NCBI GenBank assembly: GCA_030390025.1 | Contig: CM059453.1 | Location: 7,936,001 to 8,000,000 of the forward strand | DNA from: Squalus acanthias | Lineage: Eukaryota | Direction: 5' to 3' | DNA length: 64,000 bases | Shown here: positions 2,405 to 54,718 of the stretch, piece by piece | Position numbering within the stretch: the stretch's first letter is position 1 | How the letters are laid out: every line of letters starts with the position of its first letter | Program-made: the position numbers and the translations under genes | Notes under the pieces: model-generated | Databases searched by the model: none | Told to the model about the DNA's origin: nothing | Seen by the model: the letters and a program-made list of their open reading frames with translations, nothing else

Positions 2405-2407
2405 AAT

Positions 2408-11215: not shown

Positions 11216-11364
11216 GTGCAGGAACATTTTATTCCAACACAAAGGTAGATAAAGACGAAAACTGATAAGAAGTTATTGAAATGTTTAGCAGAAATTACAT
11301 GTTGGAGTATTTAGCCAGGTTTGTTTACAAGGTTGTAACTCGGAAATCCTCACAACATAACAGC

Positions 11365-29337: not shown

Positions 29338-29487
29338 TGGGTGGCGAACTGCTGACCTCCTAATACTCTGATTCGATTCGCTATGAACTGCAGTCTATTA
29401 CCGACGAATGGAATCTAGAAACCTGATTAATTATATCTGTGATAAAAACAATTTCCGACATTCTGACATCGTCAACCGCCTCCAGTC

Positions 29488-32400
29488 ATGAAGAGTATTA
29501 GATTGATCTCCCTTCTGATATTTAGCGAAGGTATAATATTCATTTTAATAATTAATATAGAAGCGATTTCCATTGTGTGGCAAATCAACACGTTCATTGT
29601 TTGTGGAGATAGTACATGTTTAGTTGGAAATTTACAAATGACTGATTTGCCCATTTAATGTATATTTCATTCGAAAAACTATCTTATATTTTATAAGATT
29701 GATCTAATATTTACTCTATGGTTTATCGACTTTCAATGGAATACTTAATGGAATCTAAAGAGTTTTAATGAAACTTTCACGAGTTTTAATGGATGTACTA
29801 ATGAATTTGTTTGTGGATGTTTATTAAAGGTTAAATTAACAGTATTTAACTTGACGATCAGGGTATGTTTAAATTGCGATATTATTGCGGATTTCATTGG
29901 GTTTTTAATTTCTGTTTTTTCTCCAGTTGTCCATAGTTCACGATGGTCTCTGAAGGTGCCGTGGAAGGTCTCGGCGGTAAACGGGTCATGTGCAGAAATC
30001 CCGTGTACATTTGATTATCCCGCCTATGGCCGCAGTCCACAGGGTATGTGGTTAAAGGGGGGGTCCTAAACCTAGTACCTCAGGGGTGTCGATTATCTGT
30101 GATTCCCGGAATTCAGACAACGTGCCCTTGAACTACAGAGGGCGAGCTCAGTTCACCGGCGAATTTGAAAAGAAACAATGTTCCTTACAGTTAAAGGACA
30201 TCAGGAAGATCGATGAAGGTGTTTATTATTTCAAATTGGAGATCATCAATGCCCAGAATAAGAGAGAAGGATATTCTACCGAATCTAAGGTCACTCTTTC
30301 TATTTTAGGTAGGTTTTTTGATTTGTTCCTTATGTAGTTTATATTCCATCGCGCCAGTGCCATTTAATTTTAGCATAAAATGGGAAGATTTCGTGTTACT
30401 CTTGCCCCATGTCACAGGCTACACCGGCAGGACTGGTCCATTGTGTAATACCCAGGTGTGTGTTATATTTTGACTTGAACTGAAATGGGGCGCTGGCCTT
30501 CATAGTAACTTACAGAAGCACCCTCTGTTGATCAGTCAGTAAGTGCAATACTAGATGGCATTACCATCATTGGTGTCACCATTGACCAGAAACTTAACTG
30601 AACCAGCCACGTAAATACTGTGGCAAAAAGACCAGGTCAGAGGCTGGGTATTCGGTAGCGAGTGTCTCACCTCCTGACTCGCAAAGCCTTTCCACCATCA
30701 ACAAGGCACAAGTCAGGAGTGTGCTGGAATACTCTCCACTTGACTGGATGAGTGTAGCTCCAACAACAATCAAGATGCTCGACGCCATGCAGGACAAAGC
30801 AGCCCGCCTGATTGGCACCCCATCCACCACCTTAGACATTCACTTCTCCACCACCGGCGTACCGTGGCTGCAGTGTGTACCATCTACAAGATGCACTGCA
30901 GCAACTCGCCAAGGCTTCTTCGGCAGCACCTCCCAAACAGGCGACCTCTTCCACCTCGAAGGACAAGGGCAGCAGGCGCATGGGAACACCACCATCTCCA
31001 AGTTCCCCTCCAAGTTACACACCATTCTGACTTGGAAATATATCGCCGAACTTTCATCGTCGCTGGGTCAAATCCATGGAACTGCCTCCCTAACAGCACT
31101 GTGGGAGTACATTCAGCACACGGACTGCAGCGGTTGAAGAAGGTGGCTGACCTCCTCCTTCTCAAGGGCAATTAGGGATGGGTAATAAATGCTGGCCTTG
31201 TCAGCGACGCTCACATTCCATGAATCAATAAAAGTAAAGACCGGTTTGTCAAAATTCAATCCCTCAAGGATGTGGTTAATTAAATCAAGATTTGTACTTC
31301 TAATGGACAGGTCAGAGGACATGGTCAATACTTAGGAGGGATTGCTTCAATCTGATCATTTACAGGCCCCCATATCATAGGGTCGTGTTTCAAATTCTTT
31401 CGGCTAAATCAACTTTCACACCCTTGGCCATTATTTAAATTAAAATCTACTGTAACGCGAATGTCCTTCTCTCCTTACAGATAAACCATGGATATCAGTC
31501 TCTGGGGAATTGATTGCAGGAACGCCAGCAAACCTGACCTGCTCAGTCACCCACAGTTGCCCGTCCGCCAACCTTGAATTGATGTGGACCCATGACAATG
31601 TTGTACCTCCATTTCTGCCAGAGATTAAAACTTCAAAAGGACATGATAACAGTTTCGACGATTCCCAGAAGGTTTCATCCACTTTCAACTTCAGACCATC
31701 ACTGGACCATCATGCGAAGCAGCTGGGATGTAAACTTATAGTCGACGGTGTCACAGCTACTGATGAAGAAACTCTTACACTGGATGTTAAAAGTAAGTGC
31801 CTGCTCTACGCTTCATTCAACCAACTTATTGATGAACCGGTTCAATAGATATCTGTATGCTAAATATAGTGATAGCTCGCCTGGACAATTGAAGTTCTTG
31901 TAAGTCACATTATTTCACATTTGCCCCAGAACCATGGAGTAATATTGGTCACTCCAGGGATGTGGTTTATATGAAAAATAATTGCAAATGCTTCCAACAC
32001 CTGATTTTTGTTCAGCCACAGAGTAACTGGAACATACAGGCCAAGGAGAGTCAATTCATGGTCTGAGCTAACTCACATATATACATAGGTCATACGGCAG
32101 AGAAACAGGTCATTGGGCCCAACCAGTCCATGCCGGCGTTTATGCTCCACTCGAGCCTCCTCCCGTCTTTCCTCATCTAAATCTATCAGCCTAACCCGCT
32201 ATTCCCTTCTCCCTCATATGCTTGTCCACCCTCCCCTTAAATGCATCTATACTATTCGCTTCAACCACTCCCTGTGGTAGCGAGTTCCACATTCTCACCA
32301 CTCTCTGGGTAAAGAAGTTTCTTCTGAATTCCCTATTGGATTTCTTGCTGACTATCTTATATTGATGGCCTCTAGTTATCTTCTTCTCCACAAGTGGAAA

Positions 32401-35400
32401 CATTCTCTCTGTATCCGCTCTATGAATGCCTTTCATAATTTTAAAGACCACTATTAGGTCACCCCTCAGCCGTCTTTTTTCAAGACAAAAAAGACTCAGC
32501 CTGTGCATCCTTCCCTGATATGTATACACTCGCATTTCTGGCATCATCCTTGCAATTCTTCTCTACCCCCTCTCCAGTGCCTCTATATCATTTTTATAAT
32601 ATAGCGGCCAGAATTGCATGCAGTACTCTAAATGTGGTCTAACCGAGGTTCGATATAGATTTAGCATAACTTTCCTACTTTTTAATTTTATCCGTCTCGG
32701 AATAAACCCTAGTGCTTGGTTTGCTTTTTTCTGGTCTTGCTAACCTGTGGCGCAATTTAACTGGGGCGGTGTTCGGGATTCTACAATTAGCCTCACCACC
32801 ACTGTGTAAGAGATGGGAAAGTCCGCCCTACTTATTCTGGGAGGAATGGCCTCTTGGTTGATGTACCGGAGGAATAGAACCTTATGCGGGAAAACATATA
32901 ACTCTTCAAATCCTTGAAGATAAGAAGGAAAAGAAGGCTTAGTTTTGAAATAAGCTTATCATCTAGGGCGTAAAAGTCATGTGCTGCATTTTTAATTCAT
33001 AGTTTACAAGAAAACCAACATATCTAAGTTTAATATTCTTCTTTAGTTGTCACATATATTGTTTTATTTTCCTCATCCGCACTGATAACCGCATTTAGAA
33101 ACAATGGCATTATCTCTTCCAGATGGCCCACAAAAACCAGGCATCAATTCCTCTATAGCGGCAGTGGAAGGGAGCTCTTTATTATTATACTGCACGGCCA
33201 GAGGGACCATACCGAGCAACTTAACCTTGGTCCGAAATGGTGAGGAGATCAGCAAGTCTTCCACTGGTGAACTGAAGCACATATTCCACAACATTAGTTT
33301 TGAATATAACGGTGAATATTGGTGCGTGGCTGATAATAACTTGGGCAAAGCGAACAGCTCCTCACAGATTTCTGTACAATGTAAGTGCTGTGTCAACCTA
33401 TCAAATGTATATTGGGACATCAATCCTTCTTACAGTGATTAGGCCTCGGTGTTTTCCCCCCAGTGTTCACACAACTTTCTCAAAATCCGTAGTAATATTG
33501 CCTGAAATGTCAGTAAAAGGAGAGTTGAACCAAATTCATTGAGTAAAAGACACTTTAAAAAAAAAACTGGACACCCCGATACACAACTCCAGGTAAAATG
33601 TATCTCTGATTGGTTAAAACCAACTGAATGAATATGTGGGATCTCCATATCCCTTGATTCCCCTAGAGTCCAAAAATCTGTCTATCTCAGCCTTGAATAT
33701 ACTCAATGACTCAGCATCCACAACACTTTGGGGAAGAGAATTCCAAAGATTTACTACCCTCTGAGTGAAGAAATTCCTCCTGATCTCAGTCTAAAATGGC
33801 CGTCCCCTTATCCTGAAACTATGCCCCCTAGTTTTCAGCTCTCCGGACAGGGGAAACAATCTTTCAGCATCTACCCTGACAATCCCCCTCAGAATATCAT
33901 GTTTCAATGAGGTCATCTCTCATTCTTCTAAACGCCAGCGAGTATAGGCCCAAACTACTCAATCTCTACTCAAAGGACAACCGACAGATCCCACATGATT
34001 TTCCAGGAAATATATGGATCAATTGACTGCTTGATGCAATTTTATATCTTATTAATTGCCTTGCTAGAAATAGGGGAAAGGAAAGTCTGATGAAGCATGA
34101 AATGAAAGTAACATTGAATGGTTGTAATTAAACTCGTTATGTGCAGTGACCTCTCTTCTTAATCTAATCGCCGAAATTGGTTCTATTTAGACACTGCAAA
34201 CCGCTGCATGGAAACAATTTCACTATGACTTCACTTTTTTTTAGATAAACCGACAGTAGTATCAGGCCCGACCTGCACCAGCTCTGAGAGTGGGGTTCAT
34301 TGTACCTGCAGTGTCAGAGCAAACCCCCCAACAAACATCACCTGGGGCATCAATGGGAGAAACATCACTGTGAACAGTTCAGATATCAATATCCTATCCT
34401 CGGATTTGAATAGTTACCTGGAGCAGAGCTCCCTGACACTGACTCACCCAACTGGAACTGGACACCTGATCTCATGTTTTGGAGTAAATGAGCATGGCGT
34501 TACTGTCGGAAAATACCAGCTCAAAACTGAAGGTATATATTACATTTTACTGTAAAATAAATACGGCGGACGGTTTGGTCCATCACCTGTCAGTGACTAA
34601 CTGAACGGTGTTAATGTCAGCAAATAACAGTTCCATTCGATAGCTGCATGCCAAATCCATTGGTAATTTAAGTCTGAATCCATGGATTTTTGGAGTAGTT
34701 TATGGTCTGGCCAACATCTCGTTGAAAGTTGCGATGGGAATAATGAATGCATTTAAAATCTGTCTCTCATTTCCGGGTCTGTTTATATACTAATTAGGAG
34801 CAGGAGTAGGCCACTCGGCCCCTCGAGTCTGTTCCACCTTTCAATAAGATCATGGCTGATCTGATTACTCCACATTCCCTGCTAACCCCGATAACCTTTC
34901 ACCCCCCTTGCTAATCAAGAATATATCTACCACTGCCTTAAAAATATTCAAAGACTCTGCTTCCACCGCCCTCTGAGGAAGAGAGTTCCAAAGACTCACG
35001 ACCCTCTCTGAGAAAAACATTCTCCTCATCTCTGTCTTAAATGGGCGACCCCTTATTTTTAAACAGTGACACCTAGTTCTGGATTCTCCCACAAGAGGGA
35101 ACATCCTCTCCACATCCACCCTGTCAAGAATCCTCAGGATCTTATATGTTTCTTGTCGCCTTGTTTTTGTCTCGAATGGAAAGGATTAATATAAAGCAAT
35201 AGAAGCGGCCCGCAATCGTTAATAAAACAGAAACTTCTGAATTAATTAAACTCTTTAAGAAGTCAGGTTTCCTCTCAGTCTAACGATAGCCGGCAGCAGT
35301 CTATCATTTAATTGAACTTGTACAGTTTTCGTCTCGTTTTCTGAGGAAGGATATACTTGGAGGCGGTGCGACAAAGATTCAGTAAATTGATACCTGGAAT

Positions 35401-38400
35401 GAGAGAGTTGACCTATGATGTGAGATTGAGCAGACTAGGCCTATACTCTCTGGAGTTTAGAAGAATGAGAGGTGATCTCAGTGAAATATATAAGCTTCTG
35501 AGGCGATTGACAGGGTAAGAACATAAGAAGTAGGAGCAGGAGTCGGCCATACGGCCCCTCGAGCCTGCTCCGCCATTCAATATGTTCATGACTGATCATC
35601 GACCTCAACTCCACTTTACTGCCCGATCTCCAAATAGATGCGGAGCGGTTGTTTCCCCTGGTAGATGTGGAGAGGCTATTTAACCTGGTTTGAGTGCCCA
35701 GAACTAGGGGGCATATTCTCAGGATAAGGCGTGGGCCATTAAAGACTGAGATGAGGAGGCATTTCTTCAGTCAGAGGATTGTGAAGTTTTGGAATTCTCT
35801 ACCCCAGAGGGTTGTGGAGGCTGAGATCGATAGATTTTTGGACTGCAGGAGAATTAAGGGATATGGGGATCGGGCGGGAAAGTGGAGTTGTGGCCCAAGA
35901 TCAGCCATGATCTTATTGAATGGCGGAGCAGGTTGGAGTGGCCGTAGCACCGACTCCTGCTCCTAATTCTTAAGTTATTTTGTTCTTATGAACTTGGTAG
36001 TTTTGAACATTTAGTTCAACTTTTTCACCTCGCTCAATAAAACACTTTTTAGAGCTATTTCAGATAGCCCCTGGATAGTTGTCATGGAGATATTATGAGA
36101 AGATAACATGAGATAATCCTGAAAATTGAGCGAAATATTTGGGATAATTGAAAGAGCAGAAACTAGATTGATTTGAAGTATTGGATAGCAGCCGAACAGA
36201 TCCGAGTGTGCAGCGAGGATATCGGTAGGCTGTCGGGGTTATACCTTGAATCATATATTTAGTCTGATCATTAATCACATGTTTTCAAGGTGGATGGTCC
36301 CATGCAATTCAAACATCGTATCGTTTGAAGAGGAGTCGCGAGTTCTTTAAGGCCCAATTTTGCAAAACATCTCAGTTAGAATCATAGAAATTTACGGCAC
36401 AGAAGCAGACCATTCGGCTATTCGTGTGTGTGGCGGCCGAAAAAGAACTATCCAGCCCAATCCCACTTTCCAGTTCTTGGTCCGTAGCTTTGCAGGGTAC
36501 GGTGCATCAAGTGCATATCCAAGTACTTTTGAAATGCAATGAGGGTGTCTGCATCTATCATTCTTTCAGGCAGTGAGTTCAATTCGCCCAGAACCCTCTG
36601 GGTGAAATAGGTTCCACTCAAATCAACTCTAATCCTTCCACCAATTACTTTAAATCTATGCCCCCTTGTTTTTGACATCTCACCTAAGGGAAATAGATCC
36701 TTCCTATCCACTCTTTCTAGGATCCACATAATTTTATACACGAACAATTTGCATTAAATGAATCAACATGCCTTACCAATGCTGAGATGTGGACCGGGTA
36801 TTGTTTATTTACATTTTCTTATTTTGTTTTCTTTTGAATTTAACATAGGGGAGGTACCAGAGGACTGGAGGTCAGCTAACGTAGTATCATTATTCAAGAA
36901 GGGTAGTTGGGATAAACCAGGGAATTTACAGGCCAGTGAGCCTAACATCAGTGGTAGGGAAATTATTGGAAACAATTCTGAGGGACAGATTTATTCTCCA
37001 ATTGGAGAGCCAAGGATTAATCAAGGATAATCAGCATGGCTTTGTCAGGGGGTGATCATGTCTAACCAATTTGATTGAATTTTTCCGGGGGATGACTTGG
37101 TGTGTGTTTGAGGGTAGTGCAGTTGATGTAATCTACATGGACTTCAGTAAGGCTATGGACAAAGTCCAGCATGGGAGACTGGTCAAGAAGGTAAGAGCCC
37201 ATGGGATCCAGGGCAATTTGGCACATTGGATCCAAAAATTGTCTTATTGGCAGGAGGCAGAGGGTTATGGCTGAAGGTTGTTTTTGTGACTGGAAGCCTG
37301 TGTCCAATGGTGTACCGCAGGGATCGGTGCTGGGTCCCTTGCTGTTTGTAGTGTACATTCATGAATTAGATATGAAATTATGAGGTATGATCAGTAAGTT
37401 CGCAGATGACACGAAAATTGGTGGTGTGGTAAATAGCGAGGTGTGAAGCCTCAGGCTACAGGACGATATAGACGGTTGGTCAGATGGGCAGAACATTGGC
37501 AAATTTAATTTAACCCTGAAAAGTGTGAGGTGATGTATTTTTGGAGGACTAAAAAGGCAAGGGAATAAACAATGAATGGTAGGACCCTATGAAGGACAGA
37601 GTATCAGTGGCACCTTGATGTGCTTGTTCATAGATCCCTGAAGGCAGCAGGACAGTTGGATAAGGTGGTTAAGAAGGCATATGGGATACTTGCCTTCATG
37701 TGCCGAGATATAGAATATTAGAGAGGGTGCAGAGGAGATTCACCAGGATGTTACCTGGGCTGGAGCGTTTCAGCTATGGAGAGACTGGACAGGCTGGGGT
37801 TGTTTTCCTTGGAGCAGAGAAGGCTGATTGAGGTGTCCAAATTATGAGGGGCATAGATAGCCTCGATAGAAAGTAACTTTTCCCCTTAGTAGAGGGATCA
37901 CTAACCAGGGGGCATAATTTCAAGGTAAGGGGCAGGAGGTTTAGAGGAGATTTGAGGAAAAACTTTTTAACCTAGAGGCTGATTGGAACCTGGAACTCAC
38001 TGCCTGAAAGGGTGGTAGAGGCGGGAACCCTCACAACATTGAAGAAGCATTTAGATGAGCACTTGAAACGCCATAGCATACAAGGCTACGGACCAAGTGC
38101 TGGAAAATGGGTTTATAATAGACAGGGCTTGATGGCCGGTGCGGTCACGATGTGCCGAAGGGCCTCTTTCTGTGCTGTATAACTCGATGACTCTATGATT
38201 ATGACTCTATATGGGACAGCAATCTTAAGACAATTATTTCAAATTTACACAGGGGACAAATCCATTGCTGAAATTCAGTGTTAGTCTTTGGAAAGAGAAA
38301 TCAGTTCAAATGATGCTCTCTCTGTGTTGAGGGAACACTGACCAATAAATGAATAAAATATAATAAGGATTTGTAGGGAGATTAGATTTGGGGTCATTTC

Positions 38401-41400
38401 CAAGTCCTCCATCTTCTGATAGTCGGGTCAGTGTCCTGTCTTTTTAGGAATGGATAGAAATACTGAACTCTTACTTTTAAGATGAGAATTTCGAGGAAAC
38501 TTGCCTACACAAGCTGACAAAAGTTATCCTAAAACCATGATGTAATCTTAGAGCAATGATAAACAGCAAAGTCTTTTTGAATATTTTAGGAACATTTCCC
38601 TGGGAAATTGTCATCTCAGTCCTAGCAGCCGCGGCAGTTATTCTGTTGATCCTGATCGTGGTGATGGTGCACAGGTATGTGTGATTCATAATTTCTTAAA
38701 CTATTGTGTAAATCACAGATTTGATAGGGGCCATGACATCAGGATATCTGCCTGTGAGAAACTATTGTTTCAAATAATTAACCCATGAGAGCATTGACCC
38801 TGAACCTCAGCTAAGATTTGTAAAGAGGAGGATTAAAGAGGTCAAGTGCTTCTGTGGTGCAAGTAGGGAAGTGTTAAAGGCTCACCTGCCCCTGGTCCCT
38901 CTATGGCCAGTCTATCGCTGGTCTATCGCCGGCCTATCGCTTTTCCCAGCTCCAATAATACCAGAATAGTGGTTCTCTAGCCTTTGCCCCAGTAGCTTTC
39001 GCTTCCATGTCCAAATCTTTTGGGTTCAAGCATTAAACCAAAACATGAGAACCACTTCTGGTCTGACATTGTGGTGGAGAGCGGCATTGTTGGAGATGCC
39101 GTCTTTCATACCAGACATTTAATCAGAAACACCATTTGCCTGCTCAAGTGGATATTAAAGATCCCATGACAATATTAGTGGAAGAGCAGTGAAGTTCTCC
39201 CTGTGTCACGGCAAACATATATTCCCCAATCACTCCAGGAAAGCAGATTAACTCTTCATTTGTCTTATTGTTGTTTGTGGGATATTGCTGTGCTCAAAAT
39301 GACTTCCATGTTTGTCTATAAAACTAGTTTCAAATCATAATTCATTGGCTGCGGAATGCCTTGTGAAGATCCTAAGGTAAAGGCACTATATAATTGCAAG
39401 TTTATTCTTCTGGATTTGGCCTTCCACAGCTAACCAACAACTTGCATTCCTATAGCATCTTGTAAGAACAGTTGCAAAGGCTTCACAAGGGAACATAACT
39501 CGGACACCAATTCAAAGAAGCTGATGTAATGATCAGTGATTTAAATCTTGGTCAATGATGGGGTGTTTAAGTAGGGTCTGAATGGAGAAGAGGGAAGTGG
39601 AGCCGCGGTGGATTCCAAGGAGATAATTCCAGAGTGTGTGGGCTGAGTGATGGAAGGCACGGCCGCCAATGGAGGGTGATCGAAAGAGGGAACAAGAGGC
39701 TGGGATCAGAACATCGGAGATTTGGAACCGGTGCCGATTGTTGTAGGAACAGAGGCCGTTACAGAGGCATGTGTGGGGGCCACGGATGGTTTTATAGAAA
39801 TATTAATCTCTCCAATATTAAGAAAGTAAAGAAAGAGTTGCATTTATACATCGCCTTTCACTGACTCAGGACGTCTGAAAGCGCTTTACAGCCAATTAAA
39901 TCCTTTTGAAGTGTAGTCAATGATGTAATGCAGGAAACGCGGCAGGCAAATTGCGCTCATTGAAACATAGAAGATTCGAGCAGGAGTAGGCCATTCAGGC
40001 CCCTCGAGCCTGCTCCGCCATTCGATGAGATCATGTCTGATCATCCAAACTCATTACCCTGTACCTGCCTTCTCCCCATATCCCTTGATACCTTTAGCTT
40101 TAAGAAATATATCTAACTCATTCTTGAATATATTTAATGACTTGGCCTCAACTACCTTCTGTCTTAGAGAATTCAACAGGTCACCACAGCAAGCTCCCAC
40201 AAACAGCAATCTGACAATGACCAGATAATCTGCTTTAGTGATGTTGATTGAGGGATAAATATTGGCCCAGGACACTGGGGATAACGCCCCTGCTCTTCTT
40301 CGAAATGGTGCCATGGGATCTTTCACGTCCACCTGAGAGAGCAGACGGGGCCTCGGTTTAACGTCTCTTCCGAAAGACGGCACTTCCGACAGTGCAGCGC
40401 TCCCTCAGTACTGCAGTGGAGTGTCAGCCATGATTTTGGTGCTCAAGTCCCTGGAGTGAGACTTGAACAGACAACCTTCTGACTCAGTGGCGAGGGTGCT
40501 GTACACTGAGACACGGCTGACAAGCTAACAGCCGAAAGCTGGTAGCAAGTTCTCAGAGTATATTTTTAGATTAGTTATTTGGGTGTAATAGAAAAACAGC
40601 GGAATTTGGAGAAACGTGTTATTCTTATCTGTCACTCTTTCTTCTGAAGCTGTTTAGTTTCACTATGTATCTTCCAAGGGTATTGCCAGAATTTCTCAAT
40701 TGAAAAAAGGTAGGTTGTGAAATGCCATCATCAAAGTAACTGGAAGCAAGTGACTTTAAATAAATCGACAATTCAAAAGAAGCAGTTAATTTAAATATAT
40801 TTTAAATTATCACAGAAGAAGTCCGTGTTTGAAACGAAAGGCTCGGCTCTTTCCTCAGGCCCATGCCTGACAACAACCATAGACTGTGCAGCAAGTGTAT
40901 CTCCATGAGCTCCAATATTCCTGTTTGAGTGAAGCTGCTTGTTATCTACAATTTAACATGAGAGTATCAGAACAAAAACAATAACTAACTAAGATTAAAT
41001 ACACAATCATTCGTTTTAGTCACAGAATCAAGAACACAGAATCCAAGCTTTCAAACTAAATCAAAAAGGAAATTCCTTTCTCCATCATTTCACGACTCCA
41101 ATAGACTAGAATTAAGCTGTATAATATCAGGAATTAACGTGTTACCGCAACTACATGGCAGTCCCGTCTGCAATTATCAAATGTCATTCGGATTTTGCAT
41201 TAAACTCTTCCGTCTGCTCTTCAGATAGCGTGTTAAGCCAATGTGTGCAAATCGTGTCTATTTAACAAGGTGTGAACACATTGTATGAAACACTTGTCTG
41301 CTTAATAGGGTGTTAAGACAATGTGTGAAACTCATGCCTGCCGTTCAAACACAGTCTTAATAAACAGCAACATTCCCCTGTCAGATACTTACTCGGTGTG

Positions 41401-43298
41401 CACGCACTTTACAAAACTCCTCTATTTGCTGTTTAAATAGTGTTACCTTAGTGTGCGGAATTCATGTGGCGTTATTTGAATAGGTGCGAACAAACTCTCT
41501 ACAATTGTGATGAACCATTGTACAGGCTGAACATTCCTCTCAGTGCGGACTGCACCAAGTCATTAACCAATTCCTTGAGATAGTGACGGCTGGAAATATG
41601 CAATGACCTGAATGTCCGAACGGATTTATTAGAGATAATTTGAATCAATTATGTGATGTGACTTAATTGCATTTTTTTTGAATCAGGAAGAAGACAAGAG
41701 CTACCACTGCTGTTCCCCTTACCAACAACGATTCGGTGAGTTAATTTGTGGCGTAGACCCCGTTTAAAACCGAGGTAAGTGAGGGCATGGCAACGGCCCA
41801 GCATCCGATGGAGTTACCCCTGCCTGATATTGGCACTGTTTGTAACCAGAGTGAGACACATTAACCGTGCAGTTCAACGGTTCAACACGTATTCTGGACA
41901 CCTGTTTGACGGAGTTTATAAGGGATACAATGAGCACCTCACACGACTAACAGAAAAGGTCATGTCCTGATAAATGCATCATGCATTTTCTCTGTAGTGG
42001 ATTTCTATTGAATTCAAAGTGGGTCTGAGAAAACCGATTGACCGTGTCACTACATGTATTAAACAGAATAATGTTTACGCTCCCCTCTAACATCACATTA
42101 CCACCGGTGGTTTAAATAATCAACAAGATCACGTAGTATGAGGGGTTTGAGAGGGTCAAATAGCATGGTATTTTGCTGGGATTATTAACATTGTCCTCCC
42201 TGGATTTTATGGCTCTATTTTACCGCGAGGCGGCAACATTCCGTGCGCGGGGCGTGGTTGAACAATAGGCTCACATAACCAAGCCCGGACAGATTTTAAA
42301 TCCGGGGTCTTAATTCAATATCCAGCCCCGACTCCCACACGAACCAGACTGAAATCATTGGCTATAATAAAAACTGAAAATGCTGGAAATAGTCAGCAGT
42401 TCAGGCAGCGTCTGTGGAGAGAGAAACAGAGTTAACGTTTCAGGTCGATGACTTTTCGTCAGAACTGGAAACGATTCGAGAAGTAACAGATTTTAAGCAA
42501 GTGCAGATGCAGGGAAAGGAGGATAGGACAAAAGGGAAGTTCTGTGATAGGGTGGAAGGCAGGAGATATTAAATGACAAAAGGGATGATGGTGCGAGGCA
42601 AAAGGAGATGGTATTGGGCAAGTAAAGCAACATAAATTGGGTCTAGAGGAGGTGTAAATGGCAACGGCAGAACCATTACCAACAACTACCGTCCGAAACA
42701 ATGGGGCAGTGGTGACGATCGGAAATTGATGAACTCAATGTAGAGCCTGCAAGACTGATAAATGCCTAATCGGAAGAGGGGGTGCCGTTCCTCGAGTTTC
42801 CGTTGAGTTTCATTGGAACAGTGTAAGAGGCCGAGGTCAGAGAGGTCAGAGTGGGAGTGGAGCGGAGAACTAAAATCAAGCTGGCCCAGGGGGACACAGC
42901 GGGAACTCACCCCCCAGCAGTCGGGTAAGTGTTGAGGAGGGGGGAATACTATCGGCGCGGCGGTACTCGGGGCCAGGGGAAGCCCACGGTTTCCTTTTCG
43001 AGGCAGAAGGAGTTGAATAGGACAATTAGAATGGTGGCAGTGATGGAATAAAGCGGGTTATTCTGGTACAGTAAACTCACTCTCACCCGGTTCAGGAGCT
43101 CCACATCTAAAGCACTGCTTTCTTTTACAGAGACAAGACAAGTATGGAAAAACTGGTGTGAGAGGGACTCCATCAAACCAGTCAGCTCAAAGTGAAGAGG
43201 TCCTGTATGCAGCAGTCAGTGTTTCAAAGGTTCGAAAGCAGGAGCGATATCTCCAGAACGAGGAGTCCTGTGAATACGCCGCAATTAAATGCAATTGA
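29488..43298 (+). CDS. Siglec-like inhibitory receptor copy B (leader-V-C2-C2-C2-TM-cytoplasmic ITIM), ~527 aa if a 1-nt homopolymer frameshift is corrected
   Basis: Exons 29488-29530, 29927-30308, 31481-31792, 33123-33380, 34245-34532, 38590-38674, 41687-41735, 43131-43298, all AG/GT and phase compatible (1,1,1,1,1,2,0). Siglec Cys pattern: GSCAEIPC, KQCSL, CSVTHSCP, CT..HCTCSVRANP. Confidence 0.85.
29927..30308 (+). CDS. Copy B V-set exon (frameshift at G7, 30057-30063)
   Basis: VVHSSRWSLKVP...GSCAEIPCTFDYP...GMWLKG / YRGRAQFTGEFEKKQCSLQLKDIRKIDEGVYYFKLE. Confidence 0.9.
31481..31792 (+). CDS. Copy B Ig domain 2 (C2-set)
   Basis: DKPWISV...GTPANLTCSVTHSCP...W...LGCKL...TLTLDVK, open frame. 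Confidence 0.9.
32085..32750 (-). mobile_element. CR1 3' fragment (intronic)
   Basis: ORF 32191-32547 FFTQRVVRMWNSLPQ. Confidence 0.9.
33123..33380 (+). CDS. Copy B Ig domain 3
   Basis: GPQKP...EGSSLLLYC...NGEYWCVADNNLG...ISVQ. Confidence 0.9.
34245..34532 (+). CDS. Copy B Ig domain 4 (membrane proximal)
   Basis: YKPTVVSGPTCTSSESGVHCTCSVRANPPTNITW...ISCFGVNEHG. Confidence 0.9.
34795..36740. mobile_element. Cluster of CR1 3' fragments (~34795-35150 -, ~35340-35990 +, ~36377-36740 -)
   Basis: ORF2 C-terminal motifs in ORFs 34865-35119, 35694-35966 and 36448-36747. Confidence 0.85.
36843..38205 (+). mobile_element. CR1 ORF2 RT region to 3' end, degenerate
   Basis: GEVPEDWRSANVV, YMDFSKA, GVPQGSVLGPLLF, KFADDTKI. 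Confidence 0.95.
38590..38674 (+). CDS. Copy B transmembrane exon
   Basis: GTFPWEIVISVLAAAAVILLILIVVMVHR; no charged residue in the hydrophobic core. Confidence 0.9.
39000..39410 (+). mobile_element. Old DeuSINE-like (SacSINE1-like) copy
   Basis: GGAGATGCCGTCTTTC...AAAGATCCCATG...GAAGAGCAG central domain. Confidence 0.6.
39832..40521 (-). mobile_element. DeuSINE-like tRNA-derived SINE with nested CR1 tail (~39962-40180)
   Basis: tRNA-like head TGTCAGCCGTG.CTCAGTG...GTTCAAGTC on the - strand; Deu-type core. Confidence 0.8.
41687..41735 (+). CDS. Copy B cytoplasmic exon
   Basis: tttgaatcag|G AAG AAG ACA...TCG|gtgag gives (R)KKTRATTAVPLTNNDS and bridges phase 2 to 0. Confidence 0.7.
42365..42870 (-). 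mobile_element. Penelope-like element 3' end/pLTR (second copy ~45045-45590, +)
   Basis: GIY-YIG C-terminus (GLLHC...RKLEERH.LFRLG) and minimal hammerhead CTGACGA...GAAAC. Confidence 0.75.
43131..43298 (+). CDS. Copy B terminal exon with ITIM (VLYAAV) and ITIM-like motif (CEYAAI)
   Basis: RQDKYGKTGVRGTPSNQSAQSEEVLYAAVSVSKVRKQERYLQNEESCEYAAIKCN*. Confidence 0.9.
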   Translation, partial: RQDKYGKTGVRGTPSNQSAQSEEVLYAAVSVSKVRKQERYLQNEESCEYAAIKCN

Positions 43299-47782: not shown

Positions 47783-48265
47783 GTATCTGCAAAAATAGCA
47801 GCTTAAGCGAGAGATTGGAGAAATCGAACTCCAGCAAGCGTTCAATTTGGAAGTGGAGAATATTGGGGCAAATACTGCAAGCAAGAACAACGAGTTTTTC
47901 AAATGTCTTGATTGTAAAAACGTGTCGTATCTCTTCGTTGTTATAATTGGTTCATTTGGAAAAAGAAACATTAGAGATTCAGAGAAGCGTCCTCTCTAAG
48001 TTCTGGTCCTTTTCAGGCAAATTTAATAGCTGCATATTCGCTCATCTCCTTGCTATTTACATAACCGTGCCCTTCAGGAATATTTGAAAAGTGCACAGTG
48101 GTGTAAGTAATTTCTTCCTTCTGCTAAGTTGAGTTGGATATCACTTCCCAGCCGTCACTGTCTGGATGATCCCTCTGCAACAGAAACAACACGTGCAGCG
48201 TATAAAAGACTACACGTGGTACAGATACAGAAATAAAACGGGGTACAGGTAGACAAAGAAAACTT

Positions 48266-48986
48266 GGCACAGAATTACCGAGAACACGTACGCACTGTGT
48301 ACTGTGTACTCACCCGCAAGGCCTCCTGAAGTGCCGGTTTCCTGCATGCACTGCGCATGCGTGGGAAACCGGCACTTCCGGTATGGCGAAGGGGGCGTTT
48401 CCTAGGTGAACCGCGTGCGCACTAAAGGCTGCGCGCACGCAGCACATTTAGGTTTTTTTTCAGGTTTCAATGCGAGGGTAAGTATGGAAGATTCAACACG
48501 AGTAAAAAGGAGGCGTAAGACCCCTTTTGAACAAGGTAAGTAGTTAATTAAGTATAATTTTAAAGAAAGGTAAGTTTATTATTATAACTTTTAAAAAGAA
48601 TTCAAATGTTTTCAAAAATTTAAATTTTTGTTTAAAGTGCTTAATTTATTTAACTATAGTTATTTTATTAATGTGATGGATTTTTAAAAATTTATTTGAG
48701 GTTTAGCTGTTCTTTTGGGGCCGATTTCAATTCACAGATTTGACATCCTGTCAAATCTATGAATTAAAGATGGTCTGCTGCCATTGGCTCTCCATGGCCC
48801 ACGTGATCCCAGGGATCGCATCGCACTAACTGCGCCCCTGGGACACGCAAGCACTGCGCGCCGGCACTAGGGAAAGGCCCAGGACCCGAAGTTCCTGTGG
48901 GCCCGAAACACAACGGCAGGCGTGGTAGGTAAGAGCGCGCGTGATCCTTACCCCCGCGGCAAGCCGGCCACCCGAATTTCTAGGCC
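48266..48986 (-). mobile_element. Non-autonomous TIR DNA transposon (MITE-like, probably PIF/Harbinger), copy E1
   Basis: Ends GGCACAGAATT...AATTTCTAGGCC; reverse complement of E2 and E6. Confidence 0.75.
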
Positions 48987-48996
48987 ATTGTTTTGG

Positions 48997-49660
48997 GCAG
49001 TTTATATGTAGAATAACGGATACCCGGGAGTCAGATACAGGCTGTAATCTAATCGAGGATTTCGGGTGAAGGCGGGGTTATATAAAGAATAACAGAAAAC
49101 TGGGAGTGAGTTACAGGTCTGAATATAATCGAGGGGTTTCAGTGTGGTTTGTATATAGAATAACAGCTACCCGGGAGTGAGTTACAGGCTGGAATCGAAT
49201 CGAGGGGTTTGGGGGAGGGTTTATACATAGAATAACAGTTACCCGGGAGTGCTTTACAGGATGAAATCTAATCGAGGAGTTCGGGAGTGGGTCGGCGTTA
49301 TATAAATAATTACAGATAACTGGGAGTGAGTTACAAGCTGGAATCTAATCGAGGGGATTCAGTTTGGTCTGTATATAGAATAACAGATACCCAGGAGCGA
49401 GTTACAGGCTGGAATCTAATCGAGGGGTTCGGGGGAGGGTTTATATATTGAATAACCGACAGTGGGGAATTAGTTCAAAATTGGAATCTAATCGAGGGTT
49501 TCGTGTGTTTTACATACAGAATAACAGAAACCCGGGAGTGAGTTACAGGCTGGAATCTAATCGAGGGGTTCGGGTGGTTTATATATTGAATAATGGATAC
49601 TCGGGGAGTGTGTTACAGGCAGGAATCTAATCGAGGGGTCCGGGCGGTTTATATATAGAA
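48997..49660 (+). repeat. ~70-bp minisatellite, ~9 units
   Basis: GGGAGTGAGTTACAGGCTGGAATCTAATCGAGGGGTTCGG...TTTATATAGAATAACAGATACCC. Confidence 0.9.
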
Positions 49661-49990
49661 AGTGCTACGCAACCAATTGATTAATTATGTTCTAATTCCC
49701 TCGCTCGTTTATATCCGAGCTAACAAATGCGTTTCTGAGGGTGAAGTCTGCGCCAGGTGTAAGCTGGTCCCATGCTTCAATCGCAGGTCTCTGCAAGGCT
49801 GGCAGCTGCCACATTATGAATGACATCGACGCTAAATGGAATGAAACAGCCAGTGATCCAATTCCTGATCACTGCTGAGTGAGCCGTTCGCAACGCGTCA
49901 CTGGGCCTGAATCTTAACTGGGTCAGCCCAGGGCCAGGCACAACTGTGTGCACGGAGCCCACTGGCAGTCAGTGCGCTTGAGTTAACAAT

Positions 49991-50752
49991 GGCCTAGAAA
50001 TTCGCGTGACCGGCTTGCCGCGGGGGTAAGGATCGAGCGCGCTCTTACCCACCGCGCCTGCCGTTGTGTTTTGGGCCCACAGGAACTTCGGGTCCCGGGC
50101 CTCTCCCAAGAGCCAGCGCGCAGTGCTTGCGTGTTCCAGGGGTGCAGTTAGTGCGATGCGACCCCTGGGATCACGTGGGCCATGGAGAGCCAATGGCAGC
50201 AGACGATCTTTCATTCATAGATTTGACAGGAGAGCTGTCAAATCTGTGAATTGAAATCGGCCCCAAAAGAACAGCTAAACTTCAAATAAATTAAAAAAAA
50301 ACATCACATTTATAAAATAACTATATTTAAATAAATTAAACACTTTAAACAAAAATTTTAATTTTTGAAAAAGTTAAAATACTTTTTTAAAGTTATAAAA
50401 ATAAACTTACCTTTCATTAAAGTATCTAAAAAAGATAAACCTGTTGAAAAAAAATTAAAATTATCCTTAATTAACTACTTGCCTTGTACAAAAGAGGTCT
50501 TACGCCTCCTTTTTACTAGCGTAGAATCTTCAATACTTACCCTCGCATTGAAAGCTGAAAAAAAATCTAAGTGTGCTGCGTGCGCGCAGCCTCTAGCGCG
50601 CACGCTGTTCACCTAGGAACCGCCCCCTTCACGCGACCGGATGTTCCGGTTTCCCGCGCATGCGCAGTGCATGCAGGAAACCGGCACTTCGGGAATGAAT
50701 ACGGGTGAGTACGGACTGTGTACTCACCCGGGAACGGACGAATTTTTGTGGC
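49991..50752 (+). mobile_element. Same TIR element, complete copy E2
   Basis: GGCCTAGAAATT...AATTTTTGTGGC; flanks AAT/AAC. Confidence 0.8.
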
Positions 50753-50848
50753 AACTGGATCCAAGAGAACAATTGAACCGTGCGCTAGCCAGAGGAGAAA
50801 TTATTCGCAGGCGCTAGCCGAAAACTGGCGTTATCGCATCGCAGGGAA

Positions 50849-53268
50849 TTAAATAGTAAGATGGGCATAGAACAGGCGGCCGTTCCGTTTTGCGCTTCCG
50901 TCCAATACAAATCCCACTCCAACGGTTCTGAAACGGAAGGATACATTGGGAACTGACAAGAACAGACAGTTAGTGAGAAGAAGCATTAGATCTCCCGTGT
51001 ACTGACAGTGTGTCATGGGATTAAATACAGTGGCTACACCGCGCCATCTACTGGCCGTAGCCAGAAACTGCACAATCATCCGAATTCGCCATAATAACTG
51101 GGGGGCAGAAATTCGTCAGTTGTCGGGTGAGTCCGCACTGTGCACTCACCCCTGGACTGAACGAAAGTGCCGGTTTCTTTCATGCACTGCGCATGCGCGG
51201 GAAACCGGCACTTCCGTTCCCCTGAGCAAAGGGGTTTAGAGGTCGAACGGCCACGCCGGAGGGCCAGCGCGTTCGCCTCGCATTTCGGGGTTTTTTTGCA
51301 GGTTCCTCCGTGAAGGTAAGCACGGAGAAGATACACATTGGCCTAGAAATTCGGGTGGCCGGTTTGCCGCGGGGGTAAGGATCGCGCGCGCTCTTACCTA
51401 CCGCGCCTGCCGTTGTGTTTCGGGCCCACAGTAACTTCGGGTCCTGGGCCTTTCCCTAGTGCCGGCGCGCAGTGCTTGCGTGTCCCAGGGGCGCAGTTAG
51501 TGCGATGCGATCCCTGGGATCACGTGGGCCATGGAGAGCCAATGGCAGCAGACCATCTTTCATTCATAGATTTGACAGGATGTCAAATCTGTGAATTGCA
51601 ATCGGCCCCAAAAGAACAGCTAAACCTGAAATAAATTTTAAAAAATCCATCACATTAATAAAATAACTATAGTTAATTAAATTAATCACTTTAAACAAAA
51701 ATTTTAATTTTTGAAAACATTTAAATTCTTTTTAAAAGTGATATGGCCCAAAAATTCGGCCGAATACGGGAGAGTACCCGCTGCGTGCTCAATCGTATTC
51801 GTTCCCGAAGTGCCGGTTTCCTGCATGCACTGCTCATGCACAGGAAACCGGCACTTCCGGTATGGTGTGTGGGGCGGTTCCTAGGTGAACCGCGTGCGCA
51901 CTAAAGGCTACGCGCACGCAGCACACATAAGTTTGTTTTCAGGTTTCAATGCGAGGGTAAGTATGGAAGATTCTACACAAGTAAAAAGGAGGCATAAGAC
52001 CCCTTTTGAACAAGGTAAGTAGTTAATTAAGTATAATTTAAAATTTTTTAACAGAATTATCTTTTTTAGAGATTTTAAAGAAAGGTAAGTTTATGGCCCA
52101 GAAATTGAAGTTCGATGGTTGCCGCGGGGGTAAGGATCCCCCGCGATATCGCACTCCGCGCCTGCCTTTATAGTTTTGGCCCACACGAACTTCAGTTCCT
52201 GGGCCTCTCCCTGGTGCCGGCGCGCAGTGTGTGCGTGTCCCAGAGGCGCAGTTACTGCGATGCGACCTCTGGGATCACGTGGGCCAGTTAGAGCCAATGG
52301 CAGCACACCATCTTTCATTCATAGTTTTGACAGGAAGAGCTGTCAAAATTATGAATACAACAAGCCCCCAAAAGAACAGCTAAACCTCAGTTAAACTTTA
52401 AAAAAGCCATCACATTAATAAAATAACTATAGTTAAATAAATTAACCACTTTAAACAAAAATTTAAATTTTTGAAAAAATTTAAATACTTTTTAAAAGTT
52501 ATAAAAATAAACTTACCTTTCTTTAAAGTCTCTAAAAAAGATAAACCTGTTGAAAAAAATTTAAAATAATACTTAATTAAATACTTACCTTGTTAAAAGG
52601 GGGTTTTACGACTGCTTTCTTCATGTGTAAAATCTTCAACACTTACCTGCGCGTTCAAACCTGAAAAAAAAACGAAGTGTGCTGCGTGCGCGCAACCTAT
52701 AGCGCGCACACGGTTCACTGAGGAACCGCCCCCTTCGCAATATACGAAGTGCCGGTTTCCCGCGCATGCGCAGTGCATGCAGGAAACCGCCACTTCGGGA
52801 CCTAATACGCGAGAGTACACAGTGCGTAATCTCCCGTATTAGGTCTAATTTTTGTGCCTATGTGTTTAGAATTTTAACCGCAAGAGATAATATAGTCGGG
52901 GAGTATTCATTAGTCTGGTTAATGTGTATAATGACATTGGGAAGCTTTTATTTAGAACGACTCATTTCAAAATAAGTCCAGACCAGAGAAAATGTTCATG
53001 ATGCCATTTACCCGATCATTGCACACAATGGCCACTGCAACATTTCCCTGTTCCTGAGGTGAGGAGGCCATTCCACCCTTTAAGAACACCGTCAAACCAG
53101 TTCCTATTACATCTGTTTAACTTTGGATGTGCCTGTAATGTGATCCCAGACAATGATCTAAACATTCCATCTCCTCACTTACCTTAGTTCAGTGGGTTGT
53201 GCAACACACAGTTAATCACTGCACCCTTGTCTGTAGGAGAGACCCCAACAGGGACATTTACCTTCTTC
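50849..53268 (-). pseudogene. Cytoplasmic exons of an older Siglec-like paralog (53183-53268 and 50849-50952)
   Basis: tttcag|G AAG AAG...|gtaagt gives (R)KKVNVPVGVSPTDKGAVINCVLHNPLN*; the next exon has a CTAAC branch point and in-phase ITIM LFYAHL; ~53870-54030 is homologous to the post-TM intron of copy B (~38715-38880). Confidence 0.55.
51102..52858. mobile_element. Nest of four abutting TIR elements: E3 51102-51339 (-, partial, related subfamily), E4 51340-51744 (+, left half), E5 51745-52094 (-, right half), E6 52095-52858 (+, complete)
   Basis: Each junction starts with a GG(C/G)(C/G)(C/T)A(G/A)AAATT terminus; E6 is flanked TAT/TAT. Confidence 0.85.
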
Positions 53269-54037
53269 CTGAAACAGAAAATACAAATGATTCACGACTC
53301 CTAATTACAGATAATTCGCTTCAGTACACCGCCCAGTGTCCCTTTGTTGAACAACAGGGGGCGCACTATACTAAATCGTTCTTGTTACTGTTTCCTGATT
53401 GGCTGCGACCAGATTAAATTCCCGTTTCTTTTCTATCTCTACACTTTCCTAATTCCAAAGCAAGCATTCTCTCTATCTGATGAAGCTGGTTATATCTATC
53501 TTGACCTGTTTGACAAATTCAGTGTTCACTAAACATTTTATGGATGGTAAGCGAGCGGCGTCTACTGGTGCAGAATAACCATAGCAATTTCCGCCAAGTC
53601 TTAAAAATGCACCGGAATTTGCCCTTTCGTGTCCAGCAATGGTTCTGTGGAGCATTTTATGACCTCCTGAGTCATGAGGTCTTCCGCCAATATGGCCACG
53701 GGAGCTTTGAGCTGCCAAACCGTGTTCAGCTTAAATTGTCTGGTATGAAATACGGCGCCTCCGCTCAAGTGACAGGCTAGATTCTCCACCCAAGTTCTGC
53801 ACTGGCCCTTGATCTACAATCTTTGAACTAGGAAGTGAAAGACCAGACATGGGACGCTGAACTTCTGACATTCCCCTACTTTCCCCTCACAAGACACTTG
53901 AACTCCAGCAAGCATTCCCTTGTCAACTATTAGCTGAGATTCAGGGTCAATGATATCTGGGGTTAATTACATTAAGCAATATTTGCTCATGGGCGGAAAT
54001 CCTAAAGTCACGTCCTTTTGAAATCTGTCTTATTAAA

Positions 54038-54575
54038 GCACGAGTAAGCGTTCTCCAAGGAGAACTTAGGAACACACGACAACGCAAAATCATCGAGCAG
54101 AAACTGATAGCCAAGTTCCGCAGTCATGAAGACGGTCTCAACCGGGATCTTGGGTTTATGTCACGATACATGACGTGATCCGGACTCGAGTCATCGTTGG
54201 ATTGTTCACAGATGTGATTCCCAGTAAAAAAGTCAAAATTTTAAAGATTATCGTTTTACATACAGACGGCAGCTTTTGGCACGTTAGACCCCCTGCGACT
54301 CCACCTCATTGTCTCAGTTGTATCTTGCTATGTCTTTGATGTGGGACCTTCCTGGCTGACCTGATTAACTTTATCACACCTCGGCAGATAAACAGTCAGG
54401 ATGATTTAATTTAGTTGTCTGCAATTGTAAAGTACACATGCATTGTTCTCTATCTATATATGCATTGGCGATTCTGCATCTCTTTACTTCACCCGACGAA
54501 GGAGTAGTAAGCTCCGAAAGCTTGTGATTTCAAATAAAACTGTTGGACTATAACCTGGTGTTGTGCGACCTCTCA
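54038..54575 (+). mobile_element. Penelope-like element fragment (different family)
   Basis: QRKIIEQKLIAKFRSHEDGLNRDLGFMS GIY-YIG end; CCGACGA-AGGAG..CTCC-GAAA hammerhead-like motif then AATAAA. Confidence 0.75.
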
Positions 54576-54718
54576 ATATTATTCAATGGACCAGTCCTGC
54601 CGCTGTAGCCTGTGACATGGGCCAAGAGTAACACGATAACTGTCCATTTTAGGCTAAAATTAAATGGCACTGGCGAGATGGAATATAAACTGCAAAAGGA
54701 ACAAATCAAAAAACTTAC

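What the first reader, a model, noticed from the sequence alone, without database searches (positions are those of the whole stretch)
29488..43298. Four-Ig-domain, dual-tyrosine inhibitory Siglec with CD33-related-like architecture in a probable cartilaginous fish
Seen: eight phase-compatible exons encoding V-C2-C2-C2, an uncharged TM core, and a last exon with proximal ITIM (VLYAAV) plus distal xEYxxI. Known: this layout, including the CxxxxxxxxCxC membrane-proximal domain, resembles mammalian CD33-related Siglecs such as Siglec-5 more than the conserved MAG (5 Ig), CD22 (7 Ig), Siglec-1 or Siglec-15 layouts. Inference: this is a rapidly turning-over Siglec cluster in an elasmobranch, either the ancient root of the CD33r radiation or a convergent one.
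Basis: partly seen in the sequence, partly recalled or inferred. Interest (0 to 1): 0.75.

Follow-up and report, generated by a model that had tools for sequence, protein, structure and literature searches.

The report
Damaged shark Siglec-like inhibitory receptor gene
This is one copy from a large shark-and-ray family of Siglec-like immune receptor genes, likely built as a brake on immune cells, but the copy as assembled is frameshifted, has lysine where Siglecs use arginine to grip sialic acid, and owes its likeness to mammalian CD33-type receptors to features that fish MAG has too.

Summary
The eight exons are real: signal, V, three C2-type domains, uncharged TM and a two-tyrosine tail. They are not phase-compatible. 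The V exon is 382 nt, with one G more than its 381-nt paralog in the window, so the spliced frame stops at codon 62. A near-identical contig from another sample lacks that G, so this is likely a null allele or an assembly slip. The essential sialic-acid arginine is Lys. A third tyrosine motif seen in relatives has decayed into two stop codons behind an upstream splice donor.

The supposed CD33r hallmarks are not diagnostic: the CxxxxxxxxCxC domain is in 14 of 14 MAGs tested, and fish MAG also has the ITIM plus xEYxxI-type tail. Trees put the gene in a clade whose members are all sharks and rays (100/99, 100/98), outside MAG and tetrapod CD33r. Its deep position is unresolved (AU p: 0.07 with tetrapod CD33r, 0.31 with MAG, 0.50 with CD33r plus teleost). 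NCBI already auto-annotates relatives as MAG-like or Siglec-5/13/14-like. Transcript junctions were not tested. The scan has noted this cluster before, elsewhere in the same genome.

The parts
29488..29530 (+). Exon 1, signal peptide (43 nt, phase 1)
   Evidence: matches the N-terminus of Heptranchias P0002
29927..30308 (+). Exon 2, Siglec-type V-set domain, 382 nt: frameshifted as assembled. Carries the two B-strand cysteines and the E-strand cysteine, no F-strand cysteine, and one extra Cys where relatives have Tyr
30057..30063 (+). 7-G run, site of the +1 frameshift (6 G in the paralog; one base left out at 30057 in contigs of 4 of 4 DNA runs laid)
30233..30235 (+). AAA (Lys) codon at the position of the essential sialic-acid-binding Arg (MAG R118)
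   Evidence: a contig of run X2 covers 30210-30350 with 0 differences
31481..31792 (+). Exon 3, Siglec second domain (C2), with the extra Cys predicted to link to the V domain
   Evidence: best PDB hits MAG, then Siglec-5, CD22
33123..33380 (+). Exon 4, C2/I-type Ig domain
34245..34532 (+). Exon 5, membrane-proximal CxxxxxxxxCxC Ig domain, shared by MAG and CD33r-type Siglecs
38590..38674 (+). Exon 6, uncharged transmembrane segment
41687..41735 (+). Exon 7, short form ending at the upstream donor (TCG/GTGAGT), in frame with exon 8
41736..41774 (+). Decayed 39-nt extension of exon 7 up to the homologous donor (GAG/GTAAGT): two in-frame stops where relatives encode the juxtamembrane VxYAxV motif
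43131..43298 (+). Exon 8: ITIM VLYAAV, terminal ITIM-like CEYAAI, stop
10723..16750 (+). Broken paralog: signal exon (10723-10765), D4-like exon without acceptor AG and with Trp to Cys (14208-14495), degenerate last exon (about 16580-16750); no V, D2 or D3 exon found
48013..55536 (-). Broken paralog on the minus strand: signal exon (55536-55494), open V exon with the same Lys (55099-54719), no C2 or TM exon found, exon-7-like piece with a stop (53268-53183), last exon with an in-frame stop (48174-48013) most like another subfamily (P0018)
55483..64000 (-). Inverted duplicate (90-94%) of window 1828-10776, the upstream region of the Siglec-like copies

Best explanation
This is one copy of a tandemly expanded shark-and-ray family of Siglec-derived receptor genes, likely an inhibitory leukocyte receptor by design, whose assembled V exon carries a one-base frameshift and a Lys at the essential sialic-acid Arg. 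SHOWN: exon structure, domain identities, frameshift, Lys, decayed third tyrosine motif, placement in a shark-and-ray clade, and broken neighbours. INFERRED working of an intact allele: a roughly 527-residue type I membrane protein is displayed on immune cells. Ligand engagement through the V domain would lead to phosphorylation of the VLYAAV tyrosine and of the terminal xEYxxI tyrosine by Src-family kinases, then recruitment of SHP-1/SHP-2 to damp activation (established for ITIM Siglecs, recalled; untested in sharks). With Lys for Arg, sialic-acid binding is likely weak or lost, so the ligand may have shifted. The tail was likely cut from three tyrosine motifs to two by use of an upstream donor in exon 7. 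The frameshift is likely a null allele or a homopolymer assembly slip, not fixed in the species. The cluster behaves like the mammalian CD33r cluster (birth and death, Arg loss, null copies) but most likely radiated on its own from an ancestral MAG/CD33r-type gene.
For: Exons and frame. Siglec V fold: best PDB sequence hits Siglec-1 (E 2e-15), Siglec-10 and MAG; the model of the open paralog V exon (pLDDT 90) matches sialoadhesin and MAG first (TM 0.83-0.86). Family: 25 of 27 hits are sharks and rays; seven Heptranchias protein clusters share one contig length. Clade support 100/99 (58 rows, V+D2) and 100/98 (39 rows, V+D2+proximal domain). Arg is kept in only 12 of 28 family V domains. Three tyrosine motifs occur in 9 of 35 family proteins, many of them partial models; the homologous stretch here is stop-disrupted. 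Frameshift not fixed: contigs in 4 of 4 runs lack one base at 30057, including X5 record 20 (30044-30188, 2 other letters, 1 gap), from a second sample. Null alleles and Arg loss are normal in CD33r clusters (PMC7379906, passages).
Against: No transcript evidence, so use of the short exon-7 donor is assumed; the homologous downstream donor fits the consensus better (8/9 vs 6/9) and would give a tail-less product. The V exon carries the derived residue at 10 of 13 sites where it differs from the minus-strand copy (1 the other way, 2 ties). In D4 it departs from the family about as often as the broken 14-kb copy (7 vs 8 of 18 sites). Both fit decay of the whole gene. The piece table was cut, so a contig with 7 G is not excluded, and record 20 could be a very close paralog. 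Independent radiation is not proven: a tree joining the family to CD33r plus teleost rows is as likely as the free tree.
Confidence: 0.55

Rival explanations
1. On gene status: this copy is a decaying pseudogene in the whole species, like its two neighbours, and makes no working receptor even where the extra G is absent.
For: Frameshift; two stops in the homologous exon 7; Arg to Lys; an extra Cys in V; derived residues at conserved sites of V (10 vs 1) and D4 (7 vs 8 against a broken exon); both neighbours broken.
Against: Six of seven other exons are open as they stand and exon 7 is open in its short form; all splice sites are canonical; the structural cysteines are kept; a near-identical contig of a second sample lacks the extra G. 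Rapid V-domain change is also expected under positive selection (established for CD33r, recalled).
Confidence: 0.3
2. On origin: the shark family is the sister lineage of the bony-vertebrate CD33r radiation, so a fast-evolving ITIM Siglec cluster already existed in the jawed-vertebrate ancestor.
For: The constrained tree family + CD33r-type + teleost rows has the same likelihood as the free tree (delta lnL 0.00, p-AU 0.496). ITIM-to-terminal tyrosine spacing is 23, as in amphibian, turtle and lizard CD33r-type tails (22-23), against 25 in the two fish MAGs measured; non-mammalian CD33r-type tails also have three tyrosine motifs.
Against: Neither free tree joins them. In the V+D2 tree other shark Siglec families (P0086, P0063 and kin) lie nearer CD33r (93/90, not starred). 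Family + tetrapod CD33r alone costs 14.4 lnL (p 0.065). The shared motifs are also in MAG.
Confidence: 0.25
3. On origin: the family is a shark expansion co-orthologous to MAG, that is, descendants of an ITIM-bearing ancestral MAG that lost one Ig domain and multiplied.
For: D2 and D4 hit MAG first in the PDB. Family + MAG is not rejected (delta lnL 2.7, p 0.305). No protein named as cartilaginous fish is among the best 120 of 188 MAG relatives (4 of the 120 unnamed). Fish MAG has an ITIM and is expressed in blood cells (PMC7226832).
Against: MAG forms its own 100/98 and 100/100 clade without the family. Identity to MAG is only 25-30%. Of the five MAG sialic-acid contacts named in PMC7226832, only Y127 aligns to the same residue in the paralog V exon. 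The search is word-limited and 68 hits were not listed, so the missing shark MAG is weak evidence.
Confidence: 0.2
4. It is a plain MAG or CD22 ortholog whose other exons were missed.
For: NCBI names many relatives 'myelin-associated glycoprotein-like'.
Against: No further Ig exon in the span. Whole-protein relatives have the same four-domain layout (P0004, P0009, P0014, P0015). The gene is 33-59% identical to the shark family but 25-30% to MAG and 23% to shark CD22-like. Shark CD22-like rows form a separate clade.
Confidence: 0.03

Closest known systems
NCBI-predicted shark and ray 'MAG-like / Siglec-5, -13, -14-like / Schwann cell myelin protein-like' proteins (e.g. XP_078093182.1 Mustelus asterias, XP_067831352.1 Heptranchias perlo)
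   Same: Same family: 49-59% identity over V+D2 to the four nearest; same V-C2-C2-proximal domain-TM layout and VLYAA[VL] / xEYxxI tail; clustered.
   Different: These are automatic annotations; I found no paper on them. The nearest relatives mostly keep the Arg and a third, juxtamembrane tyrosine motif; this copy has Lys, two motifs and a frameshift.
Mammalian CD33-related Siglecs (Siglec-5 type)
   Same: Four Ig domains ending in a CxxxxxxxxCxC domain, ITIM plus terminal ITIM-like motif, and a cluster with null alleles and Arg loss (PMC7379906, passages).
   Different: Separate, strongly supported clade; 23-28% identity; essential Arg replaced; sister relation neither shown nor rejected.
Myelin-associated glycoprotein (Siglec-4), especially ITIM-bearing fish MAG
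   Same: Best PDB match for D2 and D4; same proximal-domain motif; ITIM and terminal tyrosine motif in fish.
   Different: MAG has five Ig domains and is conserved, with R118 and neighbouring contacts kept from fish to mammals (PMC7226832, section 3.3.3). This gene has four domains, is multicopy and lacks R118.
Arg-less primate Siglecs (human Siglec-12; ape Siglec-5/14 with Arg to His or Tyr)
   Same: Siglec body with the essential Arg changed; polymorphic frameshift alleles in SIGLEC12 (PMC7379906).
   Different: Here the change is the conservative Lys, and Arg loss runs through 16 of 28 family V domains sampled.

Membership tests
Siglec (sialic-acid-binding Ig-like lectin) | N-terminal V-set domain of Siglec type: B- and E-strand cysteines, no F-strand cysteine, extra Cys for the V-to-C2 link | tested here: met
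   C37, C42, C100 and W22 of MAG align to C, C, C, W; top hits are Siglecs by sequence and fold. Tested on the open paralog V exon, 93% identical in DNA; the focal exon has the same cysteines.
Siglec (sialic-acid-binding Ig-like lectin) | Essential F-strand arginine | tested here: not met
   Lys in both window V exons; codon confirmed by an independent contig. Filed therefore as Siglec-like by descent, not as a canonical Siglec.
Siglec (sialic-acid-binding Ig-like lectin) | V domain followed by C2-set domains and one TM segment in an open reading frame | tested here: inconclusive
   Domains present, but the frame is broken in the assembly and open at that site in contigs of other samples.
Siglec (sialic-acid-binding Ig-like lectin) | Binds sialylated glycans | not testable with these tools
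   Needs a glycan array or cell binding assay.
CD33-related Siglecs | Groups with CD33r Siglecs in phylogeny | tested here: inconclusive
   Not grouped in the free trees; AU p 0.065 with tetrapod CD33r and 0.496 with CD33r + teleost rows.
CD33-related Siglecs | Proximal ITIM plus distal ITIM-like motif | tested here: met
   VLYAAV and CEYAAI, 23 apart; not diagnostic, since fish MAG has the like.
CD33-related Siglecs | Tandem, rapidly turning-over cluster | tested here: met
   Three copies, two broken, and an inverted duplication in 64 kb; several genes per contig in other sharks.
CD33-related Siglecs | Synteny with the tetrapod CD33r locus | not testable with these tools
   No genome held; no other gene family found in the window (2 of 60 long ORFs hit Pfam, both reverse transcriptase).
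CD33-related Siglecs | Leukocyte expression and SHP-1/2 recruitment | not tested
   No RNA run was laid; bench assay needed.
MAG (Siglec-4) | Five Ig domains | tested here: not met
   Four Ig exons only.
MAG (Siglec-4) | Falls inside the MAG clade; conserved R118, Y65, N125, Y127, T128 | tested here: not met
   Outside the MAG clade; 1 of 5 contacts matches. Sister relation to MAG not rejected.
CD22 / Siglec-1 / Siglec-15 | Seven, seventeen or two Ig domains (counts recalled); charged TM in Siglec-15 | tested here: not met
   Four domains and uncharged TM; Siglec-1 and shark CD22-like rows lack the proximal CxxxxxxxxCxC domain and form other clades. No named mammalian CD22 or Siglec-15 row was in the trees.

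The most novel reading that the evidence does not exclude
Sharks and rays carry the sister lineage of the CD33-related Siglec radiation: a large, fast-evolving cluster of ITIM receptors dating to the jawed-vertebrate ancestor, in which copies such as this one retune themselves by dropping the sialic-acid arginine and by trimming a three-tyrosine tail to two through a new splice donor.
Probability: 0.22. Interest if true: 0.65.

Novelty: new variant of a known kind. Interest (0 to 1): 0.38.

Why it matters
The paper on fish Siglecs that I could read states that fish genomes lack inhibitory CD33-related Siglecs and that MAG and CD22 may stand in for them (PMC7226832, about teleosts). A multi-gene cluster of ITIM-bearing Siglec-like receptors in sharks and rays shows that CD33r-style turnover (duplication, null copies, Arg loss, tail remodelling) is not confined to tetrapods. 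It makes the age of that strategy testable by synteny and denser trees. This one copy is a weak representative: broken as assembled, with a Lys at the binding site and no transcript evidence. Intact relatives such as the Mustelus or Heptranchias proteins are better study objects.

Tried and rejected
Whole genome: none held, so synteny could not be tested; the window's other long ORFs gave only reverse-transcriptase hits (2 of 60).

Depth was not used as copy number.

Candidate extra exon: 40679-40709 was tried and dropped; it has no match in the relatives.

Trees: the tree of the proximal domain alone (33 rows, 96 columns) was unresolved at depth. My local C2 profile missed some domains, including the focal D3 in one filter, so the domain strings are lower bounds. 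Dropped before the trees: redundant MAG orthologs and isoforms (14 MAGs kept for the domain scan, 8 in the trees) and proteins without an adjacent V+D2 pair.

Papers: ten searches found no paper describing this shark cluster and none on Arg-to-Lys Siglec mutants. Cao et al. 2009 and de Bellard 2016 were not held; Bornhofft et al. 2018 was seen only as a citation. Any of these may already cover shark Siglecs.

Earlier scan notes: look-ups by sequence and by near place gave nothing. No complex prediction was sent, since no binding claim is made.


Full report
1. Observation. They encode a signal peptide, a V-set domain, three further Ig domains, an uncharged TM core and a tail with VLYAAV and CEYAAI. 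Six-frame profile scans find no other Ig exon in the span. The exons are not phase-compatible. The V exon is 382 nt, and a 7-G run at 30057-30063 has one base more than the 93%-identical V exon on the minus strand, which is 381 nt and open. Spliced as it stands, the frame stops at codon 62.

2. Is the frameshift real? Contigs of four public DNA runs (at most three samples, one of another species label) were laid on 29400-31900. All four runs hold contigs that leave out one base at 30057. One of them, X5 record 20 (30044-30188), differs from the window by only 2 letters and that gap. Flanking contigs match the window at 0-2 differences over 118-251 bases, so the locus exists in these samples. 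The extra G is therefore probably a null allele of the assembled animal or a homopolymer slip. The piece table was cut, so a 7-G contig is not excluded, and record 20 could be a very close paralog. No RNA run was laid, so no junction is confirmed.

3. The binding site. The V domain is of Siglec type. The open paralog exon hits sialoadhesin (E 2e-15), Siglec-10 and MAG first among PDB sequences. Its predicted structure (pLDDT 90) matches sialoadhesin and MAG first by fold. But the F-strand residue that aligns with MAG R118 is Lys in both window copies, and a contig with no differences over 30210-30350 confirms the codon. Siglec binding depends on the guanidinium of this arginine (PMC10122656, passages, which also reports Siglec-6 as an exception with a second pocket). 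That Arg-to-Lys mutants of sialoadhesin and CD22 lose most binding is recalled; my search for it found nothing relevant. In the family, 12 of 28 V domains keep Arg; the rest have Ile (7), Thr (5), Ser (2), Ala (1) or Lys (1). The count includes one isoform pair.

4. The tail. Nine of 35 family proteins, many of them partial models, show three tyrosine motifs; the first lies near the membrane. In the focal gene the homologous stretch is 41736-41774. It still aligns (58% over 31 residues including the exon's first half) and ends at a good donor, but it holds two in-frame stops. An upstream donor at 41736 keeps the frame and skips it. The two-tyrosine tail is thus a derived state of this copy, and it depends on a donor whose use is inferred. 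The downstream donor matches the consensus at 8 of 9 positions against 6 of 9, and its use would end the protein before any tyrosine motif.

5. The family and the cluster. A search with the paralog V exon returned 5 proteins, all from sharks. A search with the Mustelus relative returned 27, of which 25 come from 12 shark and ray species; NCBI names them MAG-like, Siglec-5/8/13/14-like, Schwann cell myelin protein-like, sialoadhesin-like or hemicentin-like. Seven Heptranchias protein clusters share one contig length, which points to a tandem cluster. Layouts vary in the number of middle and proximal domains. The window holds two broken paralogs and an inverted duplication of 1828-10776 at 55483-64000. 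Earlier notes of this scan describe related copies up to about 1.9 Mb upstream in the same genome, some without the Arg and some with an activating-type TM. These are unchecked AI notes; I tested only the Arg loss, on my own set.

6. CD33r or MAG? The CxxxxxxxxCxC domain's best PDB hit is MAG Ig5, which carries the motif (E 1.7e-7). A profile finds the domain in 14 of 14 MAGs, in 5 of 6 CD33r-type proteins, and in neither named Siglec-1 nor the shark CD22-like protein. Fish and coelacanth MAG have an ITIM, which the authors call ancestral (PMC7226832, passages and section 3.3.3), and fish MAG tails end in a DYxEI motif. Identity of the focal domains is 25-30% to MAG and 23-27% to CD33r-type rows over V+D2, and 23-32% against 26-28% in the proximal domain. 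One point favours CD33r: the two tyrosines are 23 apart, as in three non-mammalian CD33r-type tails (22-23), against 25 in two fish MAGs.

7. Trees. With V+D2 (58 rows, 224 columns) the gene lies in a 12-row shark-and-ray clade (100/99). MAG (100/98) and tetrapod CD33r-type rows (100/98) are separate clades. Other shark Siglec families group nearer CD33r (93/90, not starred). With V+D2+proximal domain (39 rows, 318 columns) the same three clades hold (100/98, 100/100, 99/97) on an open backbone. AU tests reject none of three placements: with tetrapod CD33r, delta lnL 14.4, p 0.065; with MAG, 2.7, p 0.305; with CD33r plus teleost rows, 0.00, p 0.496. Limits: the CD33r label rests on NCBI names for the Sorex and Pleurodeles proteins and on my reading of motifs for the rest; no human CD33r, named mammalian CD22, Siglec-15 or chimaera row was available; 15 rows of the first tree are unnamed. 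No named cartilaginous-fish protein was among the best 120 of 188 MAG relatives, which is weak evidence only.

8. Working or decaying? Against decay: the other exons are open, splice sites are canonical and the structural cysteines are kept. For decay: at the 13 residues where the focal and minus-strand V exons differ, the focal copy departs from the family at 10 and the other copy at 1, including a conserved Tyr changed to an extra Cys. In D4 the focal copy departs at 7 of 18 sites and the broken 14-kb exon at 8. Positive selection could explain the V pattern; the D4 pattern is harder to explain that way. I put a species-wide pseudogene at about 0.3.

9. Mechanism. Shown: the anatomy above. 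Inferred from established ITIM Siglec biology (recalled): an intact allele would be a leukocyte surface receptor whose tail tyrosines are phosphorylated on ligand binding and recruit SHP-1/2. With Lys at the binding site the ligand is likely not a canonical sialoside, or binding is weak. It works like an inhibitory CD33r Siglec; membership of CD33r is not shown, and it fails the essential-Arg test for a canonical Siglec.

10. Novelty and verdict. Relatives are already in NCBI as automatic annotations. Ten searches of the held library found no description of the shark cluster, but the key comparative papers were not readable (Bornhofft 2018 seen only as a citation). Also seen as passages, with little bearing: PMC8455134, PMC3338513, PMC13324653, PMC9630641. 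No supplements were read; the Siglec tree in the supplement of PMC13324653 may include shark rows. Null alleles and Arg loss are known from primate CD33r genes (PMC7379906, passages). Verdict: a real gene copy of an under-described shark and ray Siglec-like expansion, damaged as assembled, with an unresolved deep origin. New variant of a known kind; interest 0.38.

Noticed in passing
window 55536-48013 (minus strand): The minus-strand copy joins a signal and V exon 93% identical to the focal gene to tail exons most like a different subfamily (P0018 type), with no C2 or TM exon between: possibly a chimera left by the inverted duplication.
   Followed up: partly
window 8781-10355, 24153-27551, 28638-29541, 55483-56874: The region upstream of the signal exon is repeated several times at 83-92% identity, including tandem copies at 24-27.5 kb that have no signal exon after them.
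   Followed up: no
window 48301-52856: Four related 400-760 base elements in alternating orientation (80-97% alike) and a short-period tandem array at about 48990-49660, inside the minus-strand paralog's last intron; not identified.
   Followed up: no
window 43889-44481: Tandem repeat of about 33 bases just downstream of the focal gene, giving long open frames on both strands.
   Followed up: no
proteins P0086, P0044, P0070, P0063, P0154, P0050: Other shark and ray Siglec families (Stegostoma, Heptranchias and Pristis named; three unnamed), mostly Arg-bearing, group nearer the CD33r + teleost rows in the V+D2 tree (93/90 for five of them) but not in the three-domain tree; they may be better candidates for shark CD33r relatives.
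   Followed up: partly
No named cartilaginous-fish protein among the best 120 of 188 MAG relatives, although sharks are myelinated; whether sharks have a one-to-one MAG is worth checking.
   Followed up: no
window 21355-22367, 27506-28390 and others: Many LINE-type reverse-transcriptase fragments fill the introns and intergenic DNA.
   Followed up: no
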